A DNA stretch of 57,651 bases, the filler included, from Catajapyx aquilonaris (taxonomy: Eukaryota): NCBI GenBank assembly GCA_000934665.2. It is 2 parts of 2 records of this genome, joined end to end, with 100 filler letters (N's around TTAATTAATTAA, not from the genome) between each part and the next. Parts side by side here need not be neighbours in the genome. Positions count along the whole stretch, not along the records: positions 1 to 28,793 come from JYFJ02004876.1; 1 more part is not named here. One strand, 5' to 3'. Position 1 is the stretch's first letter. Each line of letters opens with the position of its first letter. The notes beneath the pieces are model-generated. The model ran no database searches, was not told the DNA's origin, and worked only from the letters and a program-made list of their open reading frames with translations. Positions 1 through 25,228 of the stretch are shown here, piece after piece. A program made the translations under genes and the position numbers.

Positions 1-177
1 CTTTCTTTTTCTCTTCCAAATGGAAGGTGGAGAGGTGGTCCTTCCTTCAGATTTCCCGGCGAAAGTTTGGGAAGCATCCCAGGACCCCCTTTTTTTTCAT
101 ATTCTACGTGACTGATCCTCGATATCATTATGCCAGTGTTGAAATTACCTATCTTTTGTATGCTCTTTCTTTTGCAG

Positions 178-3100
178 TGTTTGGCGGATTGAAAGGAAGG
201 CAAAATGCAATCGAAATGGACGATATGGGTAAGCATGCACATGTCACACGTTTATATACCAATCAGTGTGAAATTGGTGACACCACCATGAAAATTGTCT
301 TATTTTTTTTTACACGACAAAAATTTGCCAGGGCATAATTTGCATATATCAGTCATGCGTGTGGCGAGGTAAATTATTCCACACTAAAAGTTAGGTCACG
401 ATGTCTAATTAACCGTGGAAAGACAATGGTATTGCATGCCGGGGTTTTCTCAGCACGCGTGATATGTTCACAATGCGTTTTGAGACGGTGCGTCCTTGGG
501 AAGAAATGCAAAATGAATGAGGTCTGATCGAGCGGATGAGGCTATAAATACGCCAGGTATTTTATAGACAGGTAATGTTAGGCCCGATTGACGCCCCTAT
601 TATTTATTCAACAGAATATGTGGAGCACATTGTTGAGAGCCACACGTTGTCAAGTACCATTATGAACTACCGTTAGTGGTTTTTAATAAAAATGGGAATG
701 GTGTTTTTCCATTCCGGTGAGTTCACCTTGAGCTGGTGACCACCTGTGCAGGATGGGAGGGGACAATGCTGGTGGAGGAGTAGAGTAGGGGACGAGGTCT
801 CATTTGCTGGGTCCCCACACCCATTCGTACTTCCGGTCCTGGGCGGATGTGGACCCAACACCGCTTCAACCTCTGAATCAAAAGAGGGGGCTAAAAACCC
901 TTCTCATGCAACCTTTATGCACATCAGCACGGTATAACCTATTTTAACATTCAGAACCGCACGACAAAATGTATACAGCAAACGGGCGCAAACGCGGAAG
1001 AAAAATATTGCGGTTCCTATTATTAGAGTATAGTGTTAATAATGCATAGGGTGGCGGTGAGACCCCCGTGGGAATCAAGTACGGAGGAACTGCAGGGTAT
1101 TTGGGGGACAATCGTCTCATCCTATCGTCCTTGGAGTCTATCAAAAAACTGGCCCCCCTTTTTTTTTCCGAGTCCATGTAATTGACATTCAAATTGTCAT
1201 TTCCGTTCGATCGGTTGGGAAGGACGGAATGACTGATTTCTCATAGTTCTGGAACTGAATTTGGGTGTAGAGCAAGCAACAACCATTTGCTGGTTTTTAT
1301 GAAACAGGATCCTATTGATCACTAGAAGCTTGTGGAACCGGAGCTCCTGGAAGTTAGACAAAATGTGGTGTATGGTTGGTTGCCTAATTTCCAGGATATG
1401 GAGTCATTTTTTTTTCGAAAATGTTCATTTTTAGAGGGGATTTCAGTCAGGGTTTATATGCGGAACTGCTTTGAAACCATGTTCCGAATATAGGTGTTTC
1501 ATGAGAAGTGTTGTGGGTTGATTAAAAGCTTCCTTTTGTAGTGATGCACGAGGCGGTCCTGTCACAGGACAAAAGGGTTTGCCGTCTTCTTTTGTGCTGG
1601 GTCACACACACCTGTATCGACCTTGTCATAATTCGTGCTTCGAAAAAAAAATTGCGCAAGGAAGTTAGTGCAACTCGTGTGAATAATGCACCAGCGTGTT
1701 AATTGGTTCCGAATAAAAACTGCACCATCAAGTGTCGTGGGTTACTGTATAATAAATTGTGACAGTGCTTTGGAAACATGCAACATGAAAATGACATGCG
1801 GGCCAGGTGCAGTGAAGTATGATGTCATTGCATGGAAGGGAGATTAGCAGATGGGACAATTTGTATAAATACCAAGCGCTGCCAACAACAACATTAATAA
1901 TGTATTCTCAGATAATGCTGATAATGCCATTTGATGACAATAGAATTGTAAAATACTGAAAATGAATTGTGTACCACTACCCTACTTTTGCAAGTTAGAA
2001 TGTAGCATAATTGCATGAAATCTGCAAGTAGTACAGGATGAGAATGCGAGCTTAATTAATTCTTTTAGGTGAGGATGTCGTGATGGGAAGGTATCGCATC
2101 ACCAACGTCGACTTCTATCCTACACTCTATGACACCTCCTCTGAGGACTTCCGCTCTCTTGCCAAACAAGTGGAAGCAGAGGTAAAAAAAATCAATTTTA
2201 AAGTATTGCACAGGACGTGACTAATCACTATCTGCTTTCCTCAGATGGACAGGTTATTTGCATTGAGTGTCATTAGGAGTGAATACAATGGGTCTCGTGT
2301 GAGTCGACTCAGTCGTGGGAGTGTCCTGGTGGAGTGTGTGGTCCTACTTGGAGTAAATGGTCCAACATGGCAGGCTGCAGAAAGGGTTGGAGTGGCCTTC
2401 CTGAGGGGACTGCAGCCCAGACACAACAGACTCTGGCTAGGCCAATTTTCTGTTGATGTCCAGTCAATTAGTTTTACGGAAACGTCACCAAAACCTCCAC
2501 TGCCACCAAGCACTGACCGGCCTTTGGACACCAATCTAGTCGGTGAGTGTTGGAATATTTCTGCCATGCAAGCTAAGCAGCCTCACCAACAGAGAATTTT
2601 TTTTCTAAAAATCTATTTAATTTTAGCGGCATGGTCCCCATGGTCAGGGTGGTCCCCATGCAAGCAGCCATGCCGAAGGGAATACACTCAGACTCGCAGC
2701 CGCACCTGTCGTTTGGGAGAGGGCCAAGGTAGAGCCTTGTCAAGTATAGAGCCATGTCTGCTCCAGGGAGGCGGGGACATGGAGATGAGGGACTGCCGAT
2801 GTGCAGATAGCGGTGATGGGTCCTGGGGATGGACCTGGACTGCATCCACACCTGCTGTTGATGCAACCACTAGTGTTGGGGCTACATCACCATCTGCAAC
2901 ACCAGTGCTATCACCATCATCATCTGCTTCTTTTGGAGCGTCTGTCCCACTGCTACCAGGGATAGGGGCAAACCAGACCTATCATCGTGAGTAATCTTTA
3001 TTCATAACAGTCCATATTGAGTTGTGCAGTTTGTAAGAGGTTACAGAAGTTTGTGACATTGGAATATGTAACTGCAGGAATGCTGTAAAAGGAACATGAA

Positions 3101-14065: not shown

Positions 14066-17000
14066 ATGTCGGTGGAGAAGGAGGAGCTGGTCCAGCGGGC
14101 CAAACTGGCCGAGCAGGCGGAAAGGTATGATGACATGGCAGCGGCCATGAAGGCTGTGACGGAGACCGGAGTGGAGCTCAGCAACGAGGAGCGCAACCTC
14201 CTCTCAGTCGCCTACAAGAATGTGGTTGGTGCCCGCAGGAGCTCATGGAGAGTCATATCCAGCATAGAGCAGAAGACAGAGGGCAGTGAAAGGAAACAGC
14301 AGATGGCCAAGGAGTACAGGGAAAAGGTGGAGAAGGAGCTTCGAGAGATCTGCTATGAAGTCCTGGTAAGTGCACTCCATGTCATAAAGGGCAGGACCTC
14401 TTCCTGACCAGGAGATCCTTGAGGGGCAAAGCATGTCTCTGACATTAAAACGAAGGGATGCTGCGGTCTGGACTGGGTTTATCAGGAAGGCCAGGAAGTG
14501 GGGTTTTACCCCCAGGCTTTGGGTCGGTTTCCAGCTCCGGAAGCCAACGCAAAGCGAAATGCCTATTGGGGGCGTAGGTGAGTGCAGGATCCGGAACCTG
14601 CCTTTTTTTCCCCGCCTTGATGAGATTGCACCTATTTCAATTCCAAAAGGATTAAGGAGGAGATGAGGTGCCTCTTCTCTCTCTCTTTTTTGGCCCCACT
14701 CTTGTCTCGCTGGGGGGGAATGCACTTCCGGAAATGTGTGTGGGCAGCCTAGTGGGGAGTTAGAGGGCGCATCTTTGAAGTAGGGCCAGCATCGATTTTT
14801 GGAGGTTGTTGAGCGCTTGGCCAAATGACTGGGAGAGAGCGAGAGCGGGAAAGAGTGGGCGTCGTCGCAACGCAGATGCAATGCGGAGTTATTGTAGGTT
14901 GGCTCCTGTGTGGGTGACGTCACAGGCGCGTCACCTTCATCCCTGCGGGTTTTCTAGAAGTATACACACATCTTTGGGAAGGGACCGCCCAATCAGCCTC
15001 CTGATGATCACTGTCCACCAGAGGGTGGCTGGGGAGGGCGTTGACATCCCCGTCTTGCCAGGCAGGCAGGGGGCAAGGTCTCGGACTCGCCTGCTAATAC
15101 TGCGTCATGGCTTGACCTTCTCATGGTGGCTGCTTTTTTTTTCTTTCTTTCTTGAGGGATCGGGTTGTGCGGGCGACGCGACGCACGCACTCCCAAACGG
15201 CCGGATTGCGTAAACGCAGGTCCATCGTTATAGTTTTCCCGGGGTGGGTTGTAGGAGGGAACCGCATTGCGGGGCTGTGACCCCACCCCCATTTTTCACC
15301 CTTTTTCGTGTGCGGGTTTTTGGGGAGGGGGAGATGAGGACCGGGCATCATTGCGTGGGTCACCGTGATTGTTCCCGTGTCCTTTTCCACACCCACGGAG
15401 GAGGGGACCCCATGGTTATGTAGTTCGGAGGGTGCACGTGTGCGGCGTTGCCACGTGTACTTTGGAGGTCGATTTTTTTTATACTCCCCATGAGGAGGGT
15501 CGATTTTAGTAGAGTGGAAGGGGCGTCAACCTCATACCGGGAACTTTGGTATTGATCAGTTCTAGTCTCAGAAGCGGGTAAGGGGACGGTGTCAACATCT
15601 CGAGGGAGCTGTCCATAGCGAAAAATTAATGCTATGCACGTCTGGTAATAAATCCGACTAATTGCGTTGAACTTCACAACAGTATGTTGGGGTCGCAGCA
15701 ATACCATGGTATCGATCAGGTCAGCGTCTGGCGGTGTTGTTCAGTAATGAAAGTTGCGGATGCTGATTTTTTCCGCTCCTGCAACGCATGGTAGCTGATG
15801 CCGGAGATAATATGTCGGCGTATTGAATCATCATCGGGGCTGCCTCGATGCAAATGTGAAATTGTGTTTACAAAGGTGCGTTATTGTCAGCGCACAGATA
15901 GGGACAAATGGGCACGTGAATGTCGGATACAAGCACTTTTAGTTAAGATTAATGGACCTGCGGAAATCCCATTACAAGGCTTGAACTGAATAAATTTCCG
16001 TTCCTCGGCTGGAATTCCTGCAGATTTTTAGCTTTGATTGAGATTTTTGTGGCGGCCCCATTGATGAGCTCCACACGATTCATTGCTCACTCATGGATTA
16101 TTCATTCCAGTTGCGTTTCCATTCCCAGTGCAATCACCTCCATTCGCCTACCACCAATTGCACCATTCTGCAACTGAATGTGTCGGATAACTGGTTCATA
16201 CCAGCCCGTCCGTCGTCGCGCGAAGTCTTCAATCAAGTGTGAATATGAAGGTGAATTCGCACAAAATGGCCGAGGCTAGGTGCAGTCTGCCCGGGACTTT
16301 TCCCCATTCGGGGTGATATTCCTGGCGCTGCCAAGTTGACAGAAGATTAAGGTGATAATTAGCTGTGCGTCGCCATCGCGCAGGTGATGAATAATTCGGG
16401 CCGAGATTCACACACACTCCTGCAGGTGGTTGCGCGACTACTCGCTTTATGGGCCGTCGGTATAGCCAGGAAATAGATGCACCCTGTGCCAGGGTCGGCC
16501 TCGAATACGCATTACTTCGGGGAATAAGCATTTCCATGCACATATTCTTGCACGTCACACCGGCGTGGCAAATGTACGGGGGAGGGGGGGGGGGGGGGGG
16601 GGGGGGNACAAACTATGCACTGACCTACATAGCTTGGTAGAGAGGAAAGGTTGCCTTACTTGGACACCTGCTATGTAGTGACGTGGCGCAATCACTTATT
16701 TACTCGGATGCTGCATGCTGAAGGGACTGTCGTTGCGAAGTAGCATTTGCGTCGGAGATTGGCATGTGTTGAAACTCCAAGCGTAGCACTTTACTTGTTA
16801 AAAAAGTGCATTGGGTCGTAGCGGCCTTCTGGGCATACACTGAGCTGGCATGCGGCTTTTGCGGGGAGGGAGGGATCCTCGCGAAAATCAGCATGTGATA
16901 GGGGCTGGCCTCATCTCCGTCGATGCTACCTTTTTCCGGAGGTAAAAGCCTCCGAACAGGAAGTGGGGTATTGATTTTTATGTATTTACACATCGGCCGT

Positions 17001-20000: not shown

Positions 20001-23000
20001 CAATCATTAGATAATTTGATGATTATGGGCCATATTCAGAGTCCTTCGCTAATGCAGCGCAAAAGTCCACACTAACTAGTGCGATGCTAGGTCCGCATTA
20101 GCGCCACACTAGTTGCTCCCATTCAGAGTCGCCTCACTGCCTGCTTCGAGGAGCGCACTAAGTTCGAACAATGCACTAGCGAGACGCGGTGTTGCCACGA
20201 TTTCACAGGCAGGTTTTTGGACACCGTCTGTGTGATAAATGGGCTTTTAAATATTGATGGATGCATGTCTTTTTCGATTTTAGTACATTTTATAGACCTG
20301 AAAACACATTTTAGACGATTAAATAATTAGTAATGACGAATTTACGCAAAAAAAAAATCTGAGCTGGGGTCGGCGGGCGACGATCTTCATTCGTGCTTCA
20401 TTTAACATTGATTTAATCCCCAGGGCGACGATCTTCATTTGTTTCCCCATGCTGGGGAAACAAATGAAGATTGAGCGCCAAAAATCGCTTAGCAGCAGTT
20501 TAAAAAGCCGCTAAGTTATTTTCAAACTACCGCCACTGCCTAGTTCGATGTTAGTTTGACGCAAAAGAAGGGGGTCCCCTTCACTAAGTTTTGCCTTAGT
20601 GCACCGCTTTAGCAGGATCGCACTAAGTCCACACTAGGCCCGAACTAGGCCTAAAGCGCGACTCTGCATGTGACTTTTCTTAGTGAACTGGGTCACGTGG
20701 TTTAAAGCACTGCACTAAACTCTTGTTGTTGACTCTGAATACAGCCCTATGTTAACAAGTTCCTCTAATTATTTATTGAATACGAAGTGTTAACTTTTTT
20801 TGTTGTGTTCAAGATTGTGAATTCCTGTCACATTGATTTATGCATTTTCACTTGACAGGGTCTCTTAGACAAGTTCTTGATCCCCAAAGCCAGCAATGCC
20901 GAGAGCAAAGTATTCTACTTAAAGATGAAGGGAGACTACTACAGGTATCTGGCAGAGGTTGCCACTGGAGACAGCAGGAATAGTAAGTACAGTATAAAAC
21001 TGGCCTTTGAAACATTTTGTTTACTAACCATTTCAGGTAATTTTTAACATGAGGGAGTTGTGATCACATGAGGTAACCACTCATGCAGTCAGCTGTATGC
21101 TTTGATGTGTAATGGCAGCATAATCACGAGTAAGTTCTAAAGCCCTTTACGGCAAATATGTGCAATTTTGAGTAATTACAGTCAGGTGTACATTTGAGTG
21201 GAGTAGTTACCTCCTGTCATGGTATATGTGCTTGCATGAGAGTTGAAGTGAATTCTTTCTTCATTCAGACATGTCCAACTTAAGAAGCAGTAATACTTGA
21301 ATTTAATGTGACATTATTGAGATTACTTTTGACATGTTTGTGTCTGAATGCTGCTTTAGAATTTGCCTTAACCGATGGCAATCAATCCTTTGCCTGACAA
21401 GTTACTGTAATGTAGTCACGGTAATTTGCTTATATTGGTGTCTGCTCATGCAGGCTGTTCCAGAAAAGACACCTCTTGAGAGCCAGTAATTTGAATATGC
21501 ACCTGATATACAGTATGTGCAGTAGTGCCAGGTCATTCTACCACTCTAATTGAAGGGTATGGTGGGAAAAGGTGATAACCCTCATTTTTGTCATTTTTTA
21601 CCTAAACACCTAGCAACTATGTAAAAGACATGGCAAACCGTTTGGTATACTCCTAGTTGACATATGGACGAGACGGCAACACGGACTAGATCAAAACCTG
21701 TATTCCCTATGATTTGTGAAGAGAGTGCAAACTTAAATTCAATTTCCTGAAAAATTACACTTTTGTGGGTTATCATCTTTTTCCACCACACCCCTCAATT
21801 ATCAGTGCACTTTACGTGCATGTCTTATTGAGAAACTCCTTGTTTCCTTTGTGTAAGTAACTGATCATATGCCATAATTATTTTTTGTGACAAGATCAGT
21901 CTTGGTGGACCATAACACCAGATTGCAGGTTTGAGAGTCACGAAGAGAGGCATTTTAAAATGAAAGGCCATTAAGAAAGTCAGTAGATGCAGAAGTCATT
22001 TCATTTGCCAGCACTTTGGGTTGATGCCAACTTTTGTGAGTGAATTATCAGAGCTAGTGGTAATAATTCTTTGCTGTACACAAGCAAAATGCCAAATGAA
22101 TTGTTATATTTTGTGTACAGGGTATCAATCCATGATATGTTATTGCAACATGTCAACTCATACACAGTGGTTTGATTTACGGATTGGCGAATTAATTGGT
22201 AGTAGCTATACCAGAAATGTTTACCATACAATGGCAACTAACATCACAGGAGGTAGATCATTAAAATAACTATTATAAATATCTGAACATTGGAATGCAT
22301 GGTCCAGGGTTAGCTGGCACCAAATCTCTGCCAAGTTCACACACTTATGTCATTAAACTTTCAAGCAGTGCAATTAGTCACTATCACTGGCTACCAAAAT
22401 TGCATGTGTAAAAAGTAAGCATTTATGAGACGTGTGTGCAACCAACAGTCGAATCTTATTTTGTTTCAACTGCAACTTTGGCATGACTGCAATTTTATAA
22501 GTTACAAATTAAACGGGGATGGCATAAAGTGGAACAGCCTGTTTTGTTAATCTAAAGCAGCGTTTCTCAACCTTTTTACCCGTGGGGAATCCTTGAAATA
22601 ATATCAATGTCTCAGGGATCCCCTACGTAAAAGTTATTCAACTTGTATATCAATTAATAACTCAGTAATAAATTTACATACGATTAGCCTTTTATCACTA
22701 CATACGTACGTATTTCTCACAGAACCCCAGTTGAGAAACGTTTGTCTGAAGGCAATATGAGTCAGAGGATGATTGTCGTATAAAAAAGAGTTTGAAATTT
22801 TAGCTATGAATTGACTTGCCCCTGGCCAATTTATTTCACACGACTGAGGTAATCAGTTGGCTATGTTGATATGTGTAAAAATTGTACACATACTAACCTG
22901 CTTTGACAACAACAGAACTTAACAATTACTTGGTGGAGTCGGTGACTACCTGGAGTAATTGTAGTTGGTTCCTTTTGATATTGTGAAGTGCTAATTGTCC

Positions 23001-25228
23001 TCATGACACAATGGAAAGACCAAAGGAATTTCTTGATTGCAATTAACTTGTCACTTACATCATGCATTGTAAATTGAACTGATGATGCTTGGTATGTGTA
23101 TGGATGGGGTGGATTTAATCCTTCTTTGCCCCCAGCAGAGTGCCCACTGTGAATCAAGTGTTTATCATCATTTACACTTGCCATGTTTAATTTTCCAACT
23201 TACAGGTGTAGTTGAGGACTCGCAGAAGGCCTATCAGGAAGCGTTTGAAATTAGCAAGGCCAAGATGGCCCCCACTCACCCTATCAGGCTTGGCCTTGCC
23301 CTCAACTTTTCAGTCTTCTATTATGAAATCCTCAACTCACCTGAGAAAGCCTGCCAGCTTGCCAAACAGGTTGGTGCCTTCCCCAGTTGTGACTGGGAGG
23401 AAAAGAGAGGAGCTAATACATCACTTTGTGCCCCCACATGTTGAATCATACACACTCACTCACTCACCTCTTTTATTCAATGCTGGCATTTGGTGACTAG
23501 GTGTAGTGAGGGATGCTGCTACAACAGGCAACGGCAGGGTTGGCTTCCTTTGTCAAGTAGTCCATTGCATATTATTGTGGAATTTCCTCAATTTAAGACA
23601 TGAGCTGCTCTTATTAAATAATTTGTTGCAAAGGATTTGCTTGAAAAGGAAGCCAATGGTCAGGTGCAAAAGTCTCCACAAGCTGTCCCAAATGGTGACA
23701 ACCAAGAGCCACCACCTGCAGGGGAGGGTGACAGATGATGAATTCCCACCATTTGCCTTTTCTCTCTCTCCCTGCCCAGGTGTAGTGGAGGACGCACAGA
23801 AATCCTACCAGGAGGCTTTTGACATTGCCAAATCAAAGATGCAGCCCACGCATCCCATCCGCCTGGGCTTGGCCCTCAATTTCTCAGTGTTCTATTACGA
23901 AATCCTGAATTCACCTGACAGGGCGTGTCATTTGGCCAAGCAGGTAGGGGTAGAGAGCAGGAAGGCCTTTTCCATGAGTTCTTTCATTTACTTTTTCTCT
24001 TTTGTGTCATCGTGCTTCTCTCTTTGAGCTATTCGCAGAGCTGTCCTTTTTACCTACCCCAACCACTGTTCCCATTTCCAGCTAATCAGGATAAAGCAAT
24101 CCCTGTCTTCATCTTTATTTTGTTGAATCTCTAGTAATTTTGTTTGACTGTGCAAAAAGAATTATATTTTTGGGGGGTAAGGAGAGAATGTTGCATTTTT
24201 AAAAAATCGTTATATTGTGTGTAAACAGATTTGCTACAGTAATGTTAATTTCATAAACTGAAATTATTAGGCTTTGGAGAAGCCATTGTGTCTGCCTGTG
24301 TTTTGGTAGGGAATCATGGAAGATAATAATTGGTACAAGTCGTTAATAATTTTGCAGTGTAGAAAACTTAAACTCTCCTTATCAGGAGGTGTGAAGCAAG
24401 AATAAAAGACCTCAAATTTTTTTTGCCTAAATAACAAGAAGGAATGGCCTGTGCGAGTTAGTAGCATGCTTCAATATGAAACACCACAGAAGGAAGCTCT
24501 GTGAATAGATGAATGAATGAGAACCACAGGCAGCCAAAAGTATAGCATGCACAGTACTTCAGTTGTGAGTTATTATTTAAATTTAATTGATTGTCCTCTT
24601 ATAATTTGGCCTCGAAATTTTTAAAAAAAGCATGGAAAGTCCTTTTCCTCTACCCAGACCCCCAACCCAAGCCTGGATTCTTAGCTGATCCCTCACTAAG
24701 AAAGAAAAGGCATGAAACCAATATTCCACGTGACCAAAAAACCACTAGTAGTTAGTACTAACATTTATACTATAGCATGAAGTGATCCCAAGTAAATTCT
24801 TCTAAAGTAAATGTGGCATAGTGACCACAGGGGAAAATATAAATTGGGATTAGTCTAACAACAGTTTATTTCACCTTCTGCATTGATTGAGACTGATTTG
24901 CATGCATTCTTGAAAATATGATTTGGTAGATTGGACAGCTGTTACAAAATTTATAAAGCATTTTAGGAGGGAAACTGTAGGCTTTCTTATACTAATCGAA
25001 ACCATTGAATCATGTCTAATGCATTTTTTTCTTCTGTCCCAATAACCTCATCTGTTGTGGACAAAAAAAAAGGCATTCGATGAGGCCATAGCAGAGCTGG
25101 ACACCCTGAACGAGGATAGCTACAAAGACAGCACCCTCATCATGCAGCTCCTGAGGGACAACCTGACCCTTTGGACGTCCGACACACAAGGGGACGGGGA
25201 CGAACCACAAGAAGGCGGGGACAACTGA
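14066..25228 (+). CDS. 14-3-3zeta: 14-3-3 protein zeta (leonardo ortholog), 247 aa, with mutually exclusive exons
   Basis: Exons 14066-14365, 20859-20982, [23206-23369 OR 23780-23943], 25073-25228 (TGA); 744 nt. Contains the hallmarks [70 protein letters not shown]. Confidence 0.98.
18835..19055. mobile_element. Old PIF/Harbinger-like MITE, copy 2
   Basis: Same orientation and interior as 11937-12149; TAAAG...CTTTA ends; its right TIR matches the left TIR of copy 1. Confidence 0.55.
20027..20747. mobile_element. PIF/Harbinger-like MITE
   Basis: TIR GGGCCATATTCAGAGTC / GACTCTGAATACAGCCC with a 3-bp TSD TAT on both sides; internal CACTAG/CACTAA repeats; CpG-rich relative to the flanks. Confidence 0.75.
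21552..21796. mobile_element. Sola-like MITE (AATT TSD)
   Basis: AATT|GAAGGGTATGGTGGGAAAAGGTGATAACCC ... GGGTTATCATCTTTTTCCACCACACCCCTC|AATT. Confidence 0.6.
22558..22743. mobile_element. hAT (Charlie-like) MITE
   Basis: TIR CAGCGTTTCTCAAC / GTTGAGAAACGTTT; degenerate 8-bp TSD ATCTAAAG / GTCTGAAG. Confidence 0.6.
23206..23369 (+). CDS. 14-3-3zeta: 14-3-3zeta mutually exclusive exon A (164 nt)
   Basis: CAG|GT GTA GTT...AAA CAG|GTTGGT; encodes [54 protein letters not shown]. Confidence 0.95.
23501..23658 (+). pseudogene. Cryptic, highly diverged third copy of the 14-3-3zeta alternative exon (pseudo-exon or rare exon)
   Basis: TAG|GTGTAGTG start matches exons A and B. The stop-free frame [35 protein letters not shown] aligns gap-free from His onward with [32 protein letters not shown] donors at 23659 (in frame) and 23664. 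Confidence 0.55.
23780..23943 (+). CDS. 14-3-3zeta: 14-3-3zeta mutually exclusive exon B (164 nt)
   Basis: CAG|GT GTA GTG...AAG CAG|GTAGGG; encodes [54 protein letters not shown]; 9 aa differences from exon A. Confidence 0.95.
24631..24698 (+). promoter_or_regulatory. Putative intronic docking element for mutually exclusive splicing (IEa-like)
   Basis: 24662-24698 is complementary in four collinear segments to 23504-23543; 24631-24655 is complementary to 23948-23976 directly after the exon B donor. Confidence 0.6.

What the first reader, a model, noticed from the sequence alone, without database searches (positions are those of the whole stretch)
23504..24698. Long-range selector/docking duplex that would loop out exon B
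Seen: four collinear complementary segments about 1.1 kb apart: TAGTGAGGGAT(23504-14):ATCCCTCACTA(24688-98), GCTA(23518-21):TAGC(24682-85), CAGGC(23525-29):GCCTG(24671-75), GGGTTGG(23537-43):CCAACCC(24662-68). Known: insect 14-3-3zeta exon choice uses competing intronic pairings with a downstream docking element (IE1/IE2 with IEa). Inference: this helix brings exon A toward the last exon and also masks the cryptic exon just after its acceptor. A selector built from a dead exon copy would suggest how such elements originate.
Basis: partly seen in the sequence, partly recalled or inferred. Interest (0 to 1): 0.7.

Follow-up and report, generated by a model that had tools for sequence, protein, structure and literature searches.

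The report
Intron RNA helix in 14-3-3zeta splicing
Two intron stretches flanking one of two alternative exons of an arthropod 14-3-3zeta gene can pair into a long RNA helix that probably helps choose between the exons, a mechanism already known for this gene in flies and moths.

Summary
The four complementary segments are exactly as described. They lie in a 14-3-3zeta cluster of two exons, A and B, that a related species splices one at a time. Pairing energy alone is weak evidence: 4 of 35 shuffles reach it, 2 of 203 with a compactness score chosen afterwards. The fourth segment loses to a local hairpin. All three 3' arms fall in the stretches of that intron that align in the related species; the 5' arms and covariation could not be tested. 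Ant-like and springtail-like loci carry comparable A-intron/B-intron duplexes (2 of 5 shuffled loci significant). Best reading: an IE1/IEa-type selector-docking helix with intra-intronic helpers, as published for fly and moth 14-3-3zeta. The 'dead exon' origin rests on a 15-of-19 match to exon B's acceptor junction only; the rest is not detectably exon-like. No earlier scan note on look-alike DNA.

The parts
20859..20982 (+). constitutive exon upstream of the cluster (phase-1 donor)
   Evidence: spliced contigs join 20982 to exon B in X5 and X6 and to exon A in X6; translation
23206..23369 (+). mutually exclusive exon A (5a type), 164 nt
   Evidence: (X6 contig, depth 208)
23393..23408 (+). 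weak alternative partner of docking arm D1; crosses H1, tied up in a local hairpin
   Evidence: -18.9 against -31.7 kcal/mol for the exon-B-side partner; probability 0.0 in ensembles
23501..23663 (+). cryptic exon-like segment M (AG...GT, 163 nt); only its first 17 nt resemble exon B
   Evidence: no contig listed uses it
23504..23529 (+). selector arm of helix H1 (segments 1-3 of the finding)
23537..23543 (+). fourth segment of the finding; predicted to lose to the local hairpin
   Evidence: probability 0.00-0.01
23540..23656 (+). local hairpin 23540-69:23627-56 inside M
   Evidence: (p 0.8-0.96)
23780..23943 (+). mutually exclusive exon B (5c type), 164 nt, inside the H1 loop
   Evidence: X5 depth 451, X6 depth 280
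23948..23976 (+). 5' arm of intra-intronic helix H2, starting at +5 of exon B's donor
   Evidence: 0 of 80 shuffles reach it as second-best helix
24029..24050 (+). 5' arm of intra-intronic helix H3
   Evidence: 1 of 80 shuffles
24488..24508 (+). 3' arm of H3; coincides with a small island that aligns in the related species
   Evidence: loose end before 24491 and bin depth equal to about 19 aligned nt (inferred)
24631..24655 (+). docking arm D1, 3' arm of H2
   Evidence: aligned island in X6 begins at 24627
24662..24698 (+). docking arm D2, 3' arm of H1 (IEa-like)
   Evidence: inside the island 24627-24729 aligned in X6 with 4 substitutions and 8 gap positions, places not shown
25073..25228 (+). 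coding part of the last exon

Best explanation
H1 (23504-29 with 24671-98) is the selector-docking helix of this gene's exon-5 cluster, the counterpart of insect IE1:IEa, and works with two intra-intronic helices nested inside it (H2, H3). Shown: the complementarity; one-at-a-time use of A and B; alignment of all three 3' arms in a second species. Predicted by folding: H3 and H2 zip up the B-last intron, H1 then closes over exon B, and H2 starts at +5 of B's donor. Inferred from the published fly model: when H1 forms, B sits in a loop and A's donor is brought to about 500 nt (134 + 375) of the last acceptor instead of about 1700, which raises A; when B is committed before the docking arms are transcribed, or H1 is open, B is the default. 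The helix would set the A/B ratio; A+B messages carry a stop 158 nt before the last junction and would be cleared by nonsense-mediated decay (inferred).
For: Exact complements; best inter-intron duplex, 2 of 203 shuffles; H3 1 of 80 and H2 0 of 80 shuffles; nested MFE and centroid. In organism B a 309-nt intronic contig aligns at 24627-24729 and, by inference from the loose-end and depth tables, at about 24491-24509, with about 117 nt between not aligned: the island edges match the H2 and H3 arms. Ant-like L025 (0 of 33 shuffles) and springtail-like L051 (1 of 51) have a compact A-intron/B-intron duplex. The best local match of D2 in the termite-like intron falls on that locus's own top predicted docking arm (L032: 3 of 3 scoring sets, 0, 4 and 1 of 300 shuffled queries do so; L078: 2 of 3). 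B is the commoner or only form seen, as the default model expects. IE1/IE2/IEa in this cluster: PMC4174434 passages; default inclusion of the exon next to the docking site: PMC4691838 passages.
Against: Plain duplex energy is not unusual (4 of 35 shuffles, 18 of 32 real controls) and the better statistic was chosen afterwards. H1 occupancy is fragile (0.41-0.93) and also drops when unrelated local arms are blocked (0.12-0.15). No data on the 5' arms in any relative, no compensatory change seen. The aligned island runs 31 nt past D2 to the contig end and holds 12 differences at unknown places, so D2 may be conserved for another reason. Three of five shuffled relatives are not significant (L019 9 of 33, L037 9 of 66, L032 12 of 95). 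The termite similarity score itself is reached by 18-28% of shuffles. No second selector competes for D2 (next partners -11.1 and weaker against -20.6).
Confidence: 0.62

Rival explanations
1. H1 is a chance complement. Only the intra-intronic helices H2 and H3 (or a protein-binding element at 24660-24730) are under selection; exon choice rests on them, on splicing factors and on decay of A+B messages.
For: Energy not unusual; fragile occupancy; the island edges in organism B are explained by H2 and H3, not by H1; A+B gives a stop 158 nt before the last junction.
Against: Best inter-intron duplex at 2 of 203 shuffles; D2 lies wholly inside the aligned island; same arrangement in ant-like and springtail-like loci; D2 maps onto the termite-like docking arm.
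Confidence: 0.22
2. H1 is real but its main job is to silence the cryptic segment M (a poison or decoy exon), not to choose between A and B.
For: M has the best cryptic acceptor of the intron (rank 2 of 26 AG sites, behind the real one); H1 starts at +4 of M; M with A or B gives early stops 157 and 121 nt before the last junction; a high-ranking cryptic acceptor also lies at or just before the predicted selector in the ant-like and termite-like loci.
Against: Blocking the selector hardly changes predicted accessibility of M's acceptor (0.32 to 0.39); no such acceptor near the selector in L051; the matrix was built from few acceptors; no M-containing contig listed (low sensitivity).
Confidence: 0.11
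3. M is a live third exon or an alternative acceptor for exon B (in-frame 93-residue insertion), regulated by H1.
For: The frame is open from M's acceptor through exon B, 93 codons; bees have three exons here (P0036, P0073).
Against: No protein match: 0 hits among 1.84 billion representatives and none at E 0.01 in the word search; 163 nt shifts the frame; not seen in two spliced runs.
Confidence: 0.05

Closest known systems
Drosophila 14-3-3zeta exon 5 cluster, IE1/IE2 competing for downstream IEa (Yang et al. 2011; seen only through passages of PMC4174434, PMC4691838, PMC6071210, PMC11802352)
   Same: Same gene and exon cluster; selector in the intron after the first exon, docking arm in the intron after the last variable exon; loops out the downstream exon.
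   Different: Two exons, one selector, nothing competes for D2; extra nested intra-intronic helices; arm sequences were not compared with the fly's (not held); the selector starts inside an exon-like junction.
[quoted passage not shown] 2012, RNA Biol 9:691, doi 10.4161/rna.20205; title only, in the reference list of PMC12772994)
   Same: By its title: both inter- and intra-intronic pairings regulate this cluster; lepidopteran gene models show two exons.
   Different: Text not held, so whether those pairings compete or nest as here could not be compared; this organism's exon peptides resemble springtail rather than winged-insect forms.
Ivanov and Pervouchine 2018 duplication model for selector origin (PMC6071210, abstract and passages)
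   Same: Selectors arise when a tandem exon duplication copies one arm of a stem.
   Different: There the copied arm is intronic and both exons survive; here the selector may be the 5' end of a copy that no longer codes.
Coleoptera Dscam1 exon 6 selectors partly inside exons; clade-specific docking sequences (PMC8042237, passages)
   Same: Selector overlapping exon sequence; structure kept while sequence changes between clades.
   Different: Those exons are live, the docking site is upstream, and many selectors compete.

Membership tests
Selector / downstream docking control of 14-3-3zeta exon 5 (IE1:IEa type) | Tandem duplicated exons spliced one at a time in 14-3-3zeta | tested here: met
   A and B are 164 nt each, 76% alike; X6 contigs join the upstream exon to A or to B and each runs on into the last exon
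Selector / downstream docking control of 14-3-3zeta exon 5 (IE1:IEa type) | Selector after the upstream exon complementary to an element after the cluster | tested here: met
   27 bp in four segments, 20 bp of them predicted to form; best inter-intron duplex
Selector / downstream docking control of 14-3-3zeta exon 5 (IE1:IEa type) | Docking element conserved across species | tested here: met
   aligned island 24627-24729 in one related species; one contig, depth 3.7
Selector / downstream docking control of 14-3-3zeta exon 5 (IE1:IEa type) | Selector conserved, with compensatory changes | tested here: inconclusive
   no relative's A-B intron close enough; distant loci give no significant alignment; organism B has no cover there
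Selector / downstream docking control of 14-3-3zeta exon 5 (IE1:IEa type) | Two or more selectors compete for one docking site (three-exon fly form) | tested here: not met
   no second strong partner of D2; the rival partner of D1 has probability 0.0; a two-exon cluster needs only one selector under the default model
Selector / downstream docking control of 14-3-3zeta exon 5 (IE1:IEa type) | Disruption shifts exon choice and compensation restores it | not testable with these tools
   needs a minigene
Degenerate (dead) copy of exon 5 | Homology to the live exons at the splice junctions and in length | tested here: met
   15 of 19 identity to B's acceptor junction, the only such site besides exon A on both strands of 57.6 kb; AG..GT 163 against 164 nt
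Degenerate (dead) copy of exon 5 | Homology along the exon body | tested here: not met
   after nt 17, 266 and 324 of 1000 shuffles reach the score; nhmmer with a 24-exon profile finds nothing; 49 of 163 ungapped identity
Repeat-derived inverted repeat | Arms belong to a dispersed repeat | tested here: not met
   one match each in G000; flat DNA depth
Described non-coding RNA family | Rfam match | tested here: not met
   3 matches at E 0.66-2.1, all far below gathering score

The most novel reading that the evidence does not exclude
The selector is the retained 5' end of a lost middle (5b-like) exon, kept because it pairs with the docking arm, and this helix is very old: its cores recur in the same order in the termite-like duplex, whose selector also starts at a cryptic acceptor. 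That would be a case of a coding exon turned into a splicing selector, and would date RNA-pairing control of this cluster to before winged insects.
Probability: 0.2. Interest if true: 0.62.

Novelty: new member of a known kind. Interest (0 to 1): 0.36.

Why it matters
It extends a proven RNA-pairing splicing switch to an arthropod whose exon peptides look like those of wingless hexapods, and names three concrete helices for a minigene test. If the selector proves to be the remnant of an exon, it shows a route to selector origin that the published duplication model (intronic arm copied, both exons kept) does not describe. Without that, it is one more instance of a known mechanism in the gene where it was first shown.

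Tried and rejected
Energy as proof: rejected, controls reach it. Rfam family: none. Repeat origin: rejected. Steric exclusion of A and B: unlikely with a 410-nt intron; plausible only in loci with 32-63 nt introns. A second selector for D2, or exon A/B pairing with D2: weak (-19.6 and -23.7 against -40.9). The exon-5c pairing reported in PMC4174434: no counterpart found; exon B's best partner scores -9.3. Direct conservation of the arms in distant arthropods by blastn: nothing on the arms. M as a coding sequence: no homologue. No RNA holder listed on record; X5 and X6 are taken as transcript assemblies only because their contigs are spliced. Lack of cover on M and on the 5' arms in X5 and X6 is no evidence either way. 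Of 114 metagenome loci 17 held both exons whole (13 distinct A-B introns); the other 97 were dropped as single-exon, non-arthropod-like or too short; 5 were shuffled. The termite-like loci do not reach the last exon. One search stopped on an error before its last part. The 2011, 2012 and 2017 primary papers were not read (for the last two; the first was not asked for); their figures and supplements may already describe two-exon clusters or exon-derived selectors. Searches for an exon-derived selector in print and for this cluster in wingless hexapods listed nothing on it.

Full report
Observation. The four segment pairs are exact complements at the stated places and give one duplex of -40.9 kcal/mol. 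They lie in a 14-3-3zeta gene: the first coding exon (14066-14365) is 93-98% identical to proteins named 14-3-3 zeta in arthropods. The cluster is exon A 23206-23369, exon B 23780-23943 (164 nt each) and a last exon from 25073. Exon A reads MAPTHP...SPEKACQ and exon [11 protein letters not shown], as in springtail entries (P0089, P0096, P0101) and unlike the IINSPARACH of winged insects, so the organism is probably not a winged insect (inference). B is the 5c type: the exon-5c 14-mer quoted in PMC4174434 (passages) encodes the NSPARA stretch of B-type exons (my translation).

Splicing. Four runs were laid, all as contigs. X1 and X3 are DNA of one sample. X5 (same organism, other sample) has a spliced contig upstream exon - B - last exon and none with A. 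X6 (organism B) has upstream exon - A (depth 208, 7 differences) and upstream exon - B (depth 280, 1 difference), each running on into last-exon sequence. So the exons are used one at a time. No listed contig uses the cryptic segment M; contigs drop rare forms. No run is on record as RNA.

Is the helix more than chance? By plain energy, no: 4 of 35 dinucleotide shuffles of the two introns and 18 of 32 real stretches of the same geometry reach -40.9. I then wrote a score that charges 0.25 kcal/mol per nucleotide and limits loops to 8 (approximate energies from recall); the reported duplex is the best one and 2 of 203 shuffles reach it. This second test was chosen after the first failed. In ensemble folds the first segment pairs at 0.93, 0.69 or 0.41 depending on the stretch folded, the third at 0.98, 0.75, 0.49, and the fourth at 0.00-0.01 because 23540-69 prefers 23627-56. 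Both arms occur once in the own genome.

The same folds give two nested helices in the B-last intron: H2, 23948-76 with 24631-55, starting at +5 of B's donor, and H3, 24029-50 with 24488-508, both near probability 1 in their cores. Against shuffles H3 is reached by 1 of 80 best helices and H2 by 0 of 80 second-best helices. Blocking H2's 5' arm drops H1 from 0.41 to 0.05; blocking either arm of the local hairpin also drops it (0.15, 0.12), so H1 is sensitive to context in general. Nothing competes seriously for D2.

Conservation. Organism B is diverged enough that four stretches of 121-200 nt of the 3' UTR do not align. Its one non-exonic contig (309 nt, depth 3.7) aligns at 24627-24729 with 4 substitutions and 8 gap positions. 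A loose end of 68 letters before 24491 and a bin depth equal to about 19 aligned letters place a second island at about 24491-24509; 68 + 239 = 307 fits the contig length (inferred from tables 2, 7 and 8; the joint row was not shown). The small island is H3's 3' arm, the large one begins where H2's 3' arm begins and covers D2. It ends where the contig ends, 31 nt past D2, and the places of the differences were not shown. No 5' arm is covered. So H2 and H3 are supported by island edges, H1 only by lying inside an island.

Other arthropods. A pattern scan for the end of exon B plus its donor gave 114 metagenome loci; 17 held both exons whole, with 13 distinct A-B introns. Group labels come from peptide likeness to named proteins. 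Five were shuffled: ant-like L025 has a 35-bp interrupted duplex (0 of 33), springtail-like L051 a compact one (1 of 51); L019 (9 of 33), L037 (9 of 66) and termite-like L032 (12 of 95) are not significant. The four termite-like haplotypes share two nested duplexes whose arms lie in conserved blocks, with one-sided changes only. The best local alignment of D2 in the 3.4-5 kb termite-like intron lands on the top predicted docking arm; the score alone is ordinary (18-28% of shuffles), the place is not (L032: 0, 4, 1 of 300 shuffled queries under three scoring sets; L078 hit in 2 of 3 sets). In L025 both arms land on the predicted arms in 3 of 3 sets, but so do 10-17% and 32-40% of shuffled queries; in L019 never, in L051 in 1 of 6 trials. 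This is a hint of old homology, found after the fact.

The dead-exon idea. The word AGGTGTAGT occurs three times on both strands of the window: at A's acceptor, at M and at B's acceptor. M matches B's junction at 15 of 19 (about 0.001 per 410-nt intron), with GAC/GAT and GCA/GCT codon-like changes (read from sequence), and a GT follows after 163 nt. M's acceptor is the best cryptic one of 26 AG sites after the real one. Whole-length alignment to B ranks 7 of 1863 AG..GT segments and beats all but 8 of 1000 shuffles, but past nt 17 nothing is left (266 of 1000 for B, 324 for A) and a profile of 24 exons finds no hit. The strongest 11-bp segment of H1 lies inside the exon-like 17 nt; the starts of A and B pair with the same docking letters at about half the energy (-10 against -19). 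A relic of a duplicated acceptor junction is likely; a whole dead exon is not shown.

Mechanism. Following the published model (downstream docking, exon next to the docking site as default; PMC4691838 and PMC6071210 passages), H1 loops out B and shortens the path from A's donor to the last acceptor; H2 and H3 pre-fold the intron and H2 may hinder B's donor. That B is the commoner form fits a helix that forms only in part or only after the docking arm is made (inference; contig depth is a poor measure). A+B, A+M and M+B messages stop 158, 157 and 121 nt before the last junction, so decay could enforce exclusivity while the helices tune the ratio.

Comparison and novelty. IE1, IE2 and IEa are described for this cluster in flies (PMC4174434), and inter- plus intra-intron pairings in moths (title only; text not held). 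This is therefore a new member of a known kind; the multi-selector competition of the fly form is not met. Searches of the held library listed nothing on this cluster outside winged insects or on a selector made from a lost exon, but the primary papers are outside the library. Earlier scan notes: none on look-alike DNA; three on other genes by words. Interest 0.36; the exon-origin reading has probability about 0.2.

Noticed in passing
window 24423-24745: In both spliced runs the only non-repeat intronic contig covers the same ~310 nt (X5 24429-24745, no differences; X6 about 24423-24729), the stretch that holds the three 3' arms. Internal oligo-dT priming at the A-rich 24699-24745, an intronic poly(A) site or a stable intron fragment could explain it.
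   Followed up: partly
window 25010-25073: The last exon's acceptor has ten A before the AG (matrix score -0.2 against 8.2-8.6 for A and B); the pyrimidine tract lies upstream of a hairpin 25035-63 that could bring it to the AG.
   Followed up: partly
window 24756-24776: A perfect TACTAAC followed by an AG at 24774-75, a branch-point-like cryptic acceptor 60 nt past the docking arm (read); no contig uses it.
   Followed up: no
window 23206-23369 and 23780-23943: Between the two species exon A differs at 7 of 163 letters, exon B at 1 of 165 (Fisher p 0.036): extra nucleotide-level constraint on B.
   Followed up: no
window 23667-23821: Predicted hairpins cover exon B's pyrimidine tract and AG (23709-37:23750-88) and pair 23667-77 with 23811-21 in the exon, p 0.94-1.0.
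   Followed up: no
window 23342-23352 with 24979-24989: An 11-bp pairing between the 3' part of exon A and the intron 84 nt before the last acceptor, p 0.95 in one fold.
   Followed up: no
window 23503-23781: Open frame of 93 codons from M's acceptor into exon B, in frame; no protein homologue.
   Followed up: yes
window 21547-21801: MITE-like element: 52-nt inverted arms and DNA depth several hundred times the flanks.
   Followed up: no
L002 (G000:C3603:2355-2491): A second 14-3-3 gene, 74% alike to exon B; a contig in DNA and spliced runs crosses the B-last junction without an intron, probably that paralogue.
   Followed up: no
L032, L048, L054, L078 (A-B intron +55..100 and +250..277; next intron +2850..2904 and +2493..2521 in L032): Termite-like loci carry two nested A-intron/B-intron duplexes in conserved blocks.
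   Followed up: partly
L025 (A-B intron +49..90; next intron +485..523): Strong interrupted duplex in an ant-like 14-3-3zeta locus, z -6.5; a high-scoring cryptic acceptor lies 15 nt before it.
   Followed up: partly
L003, L016, L017, L024: A-B introns of only 32-63 nt and no strong duplex: these loci may exclude A+B sterically.
   Followed up: no
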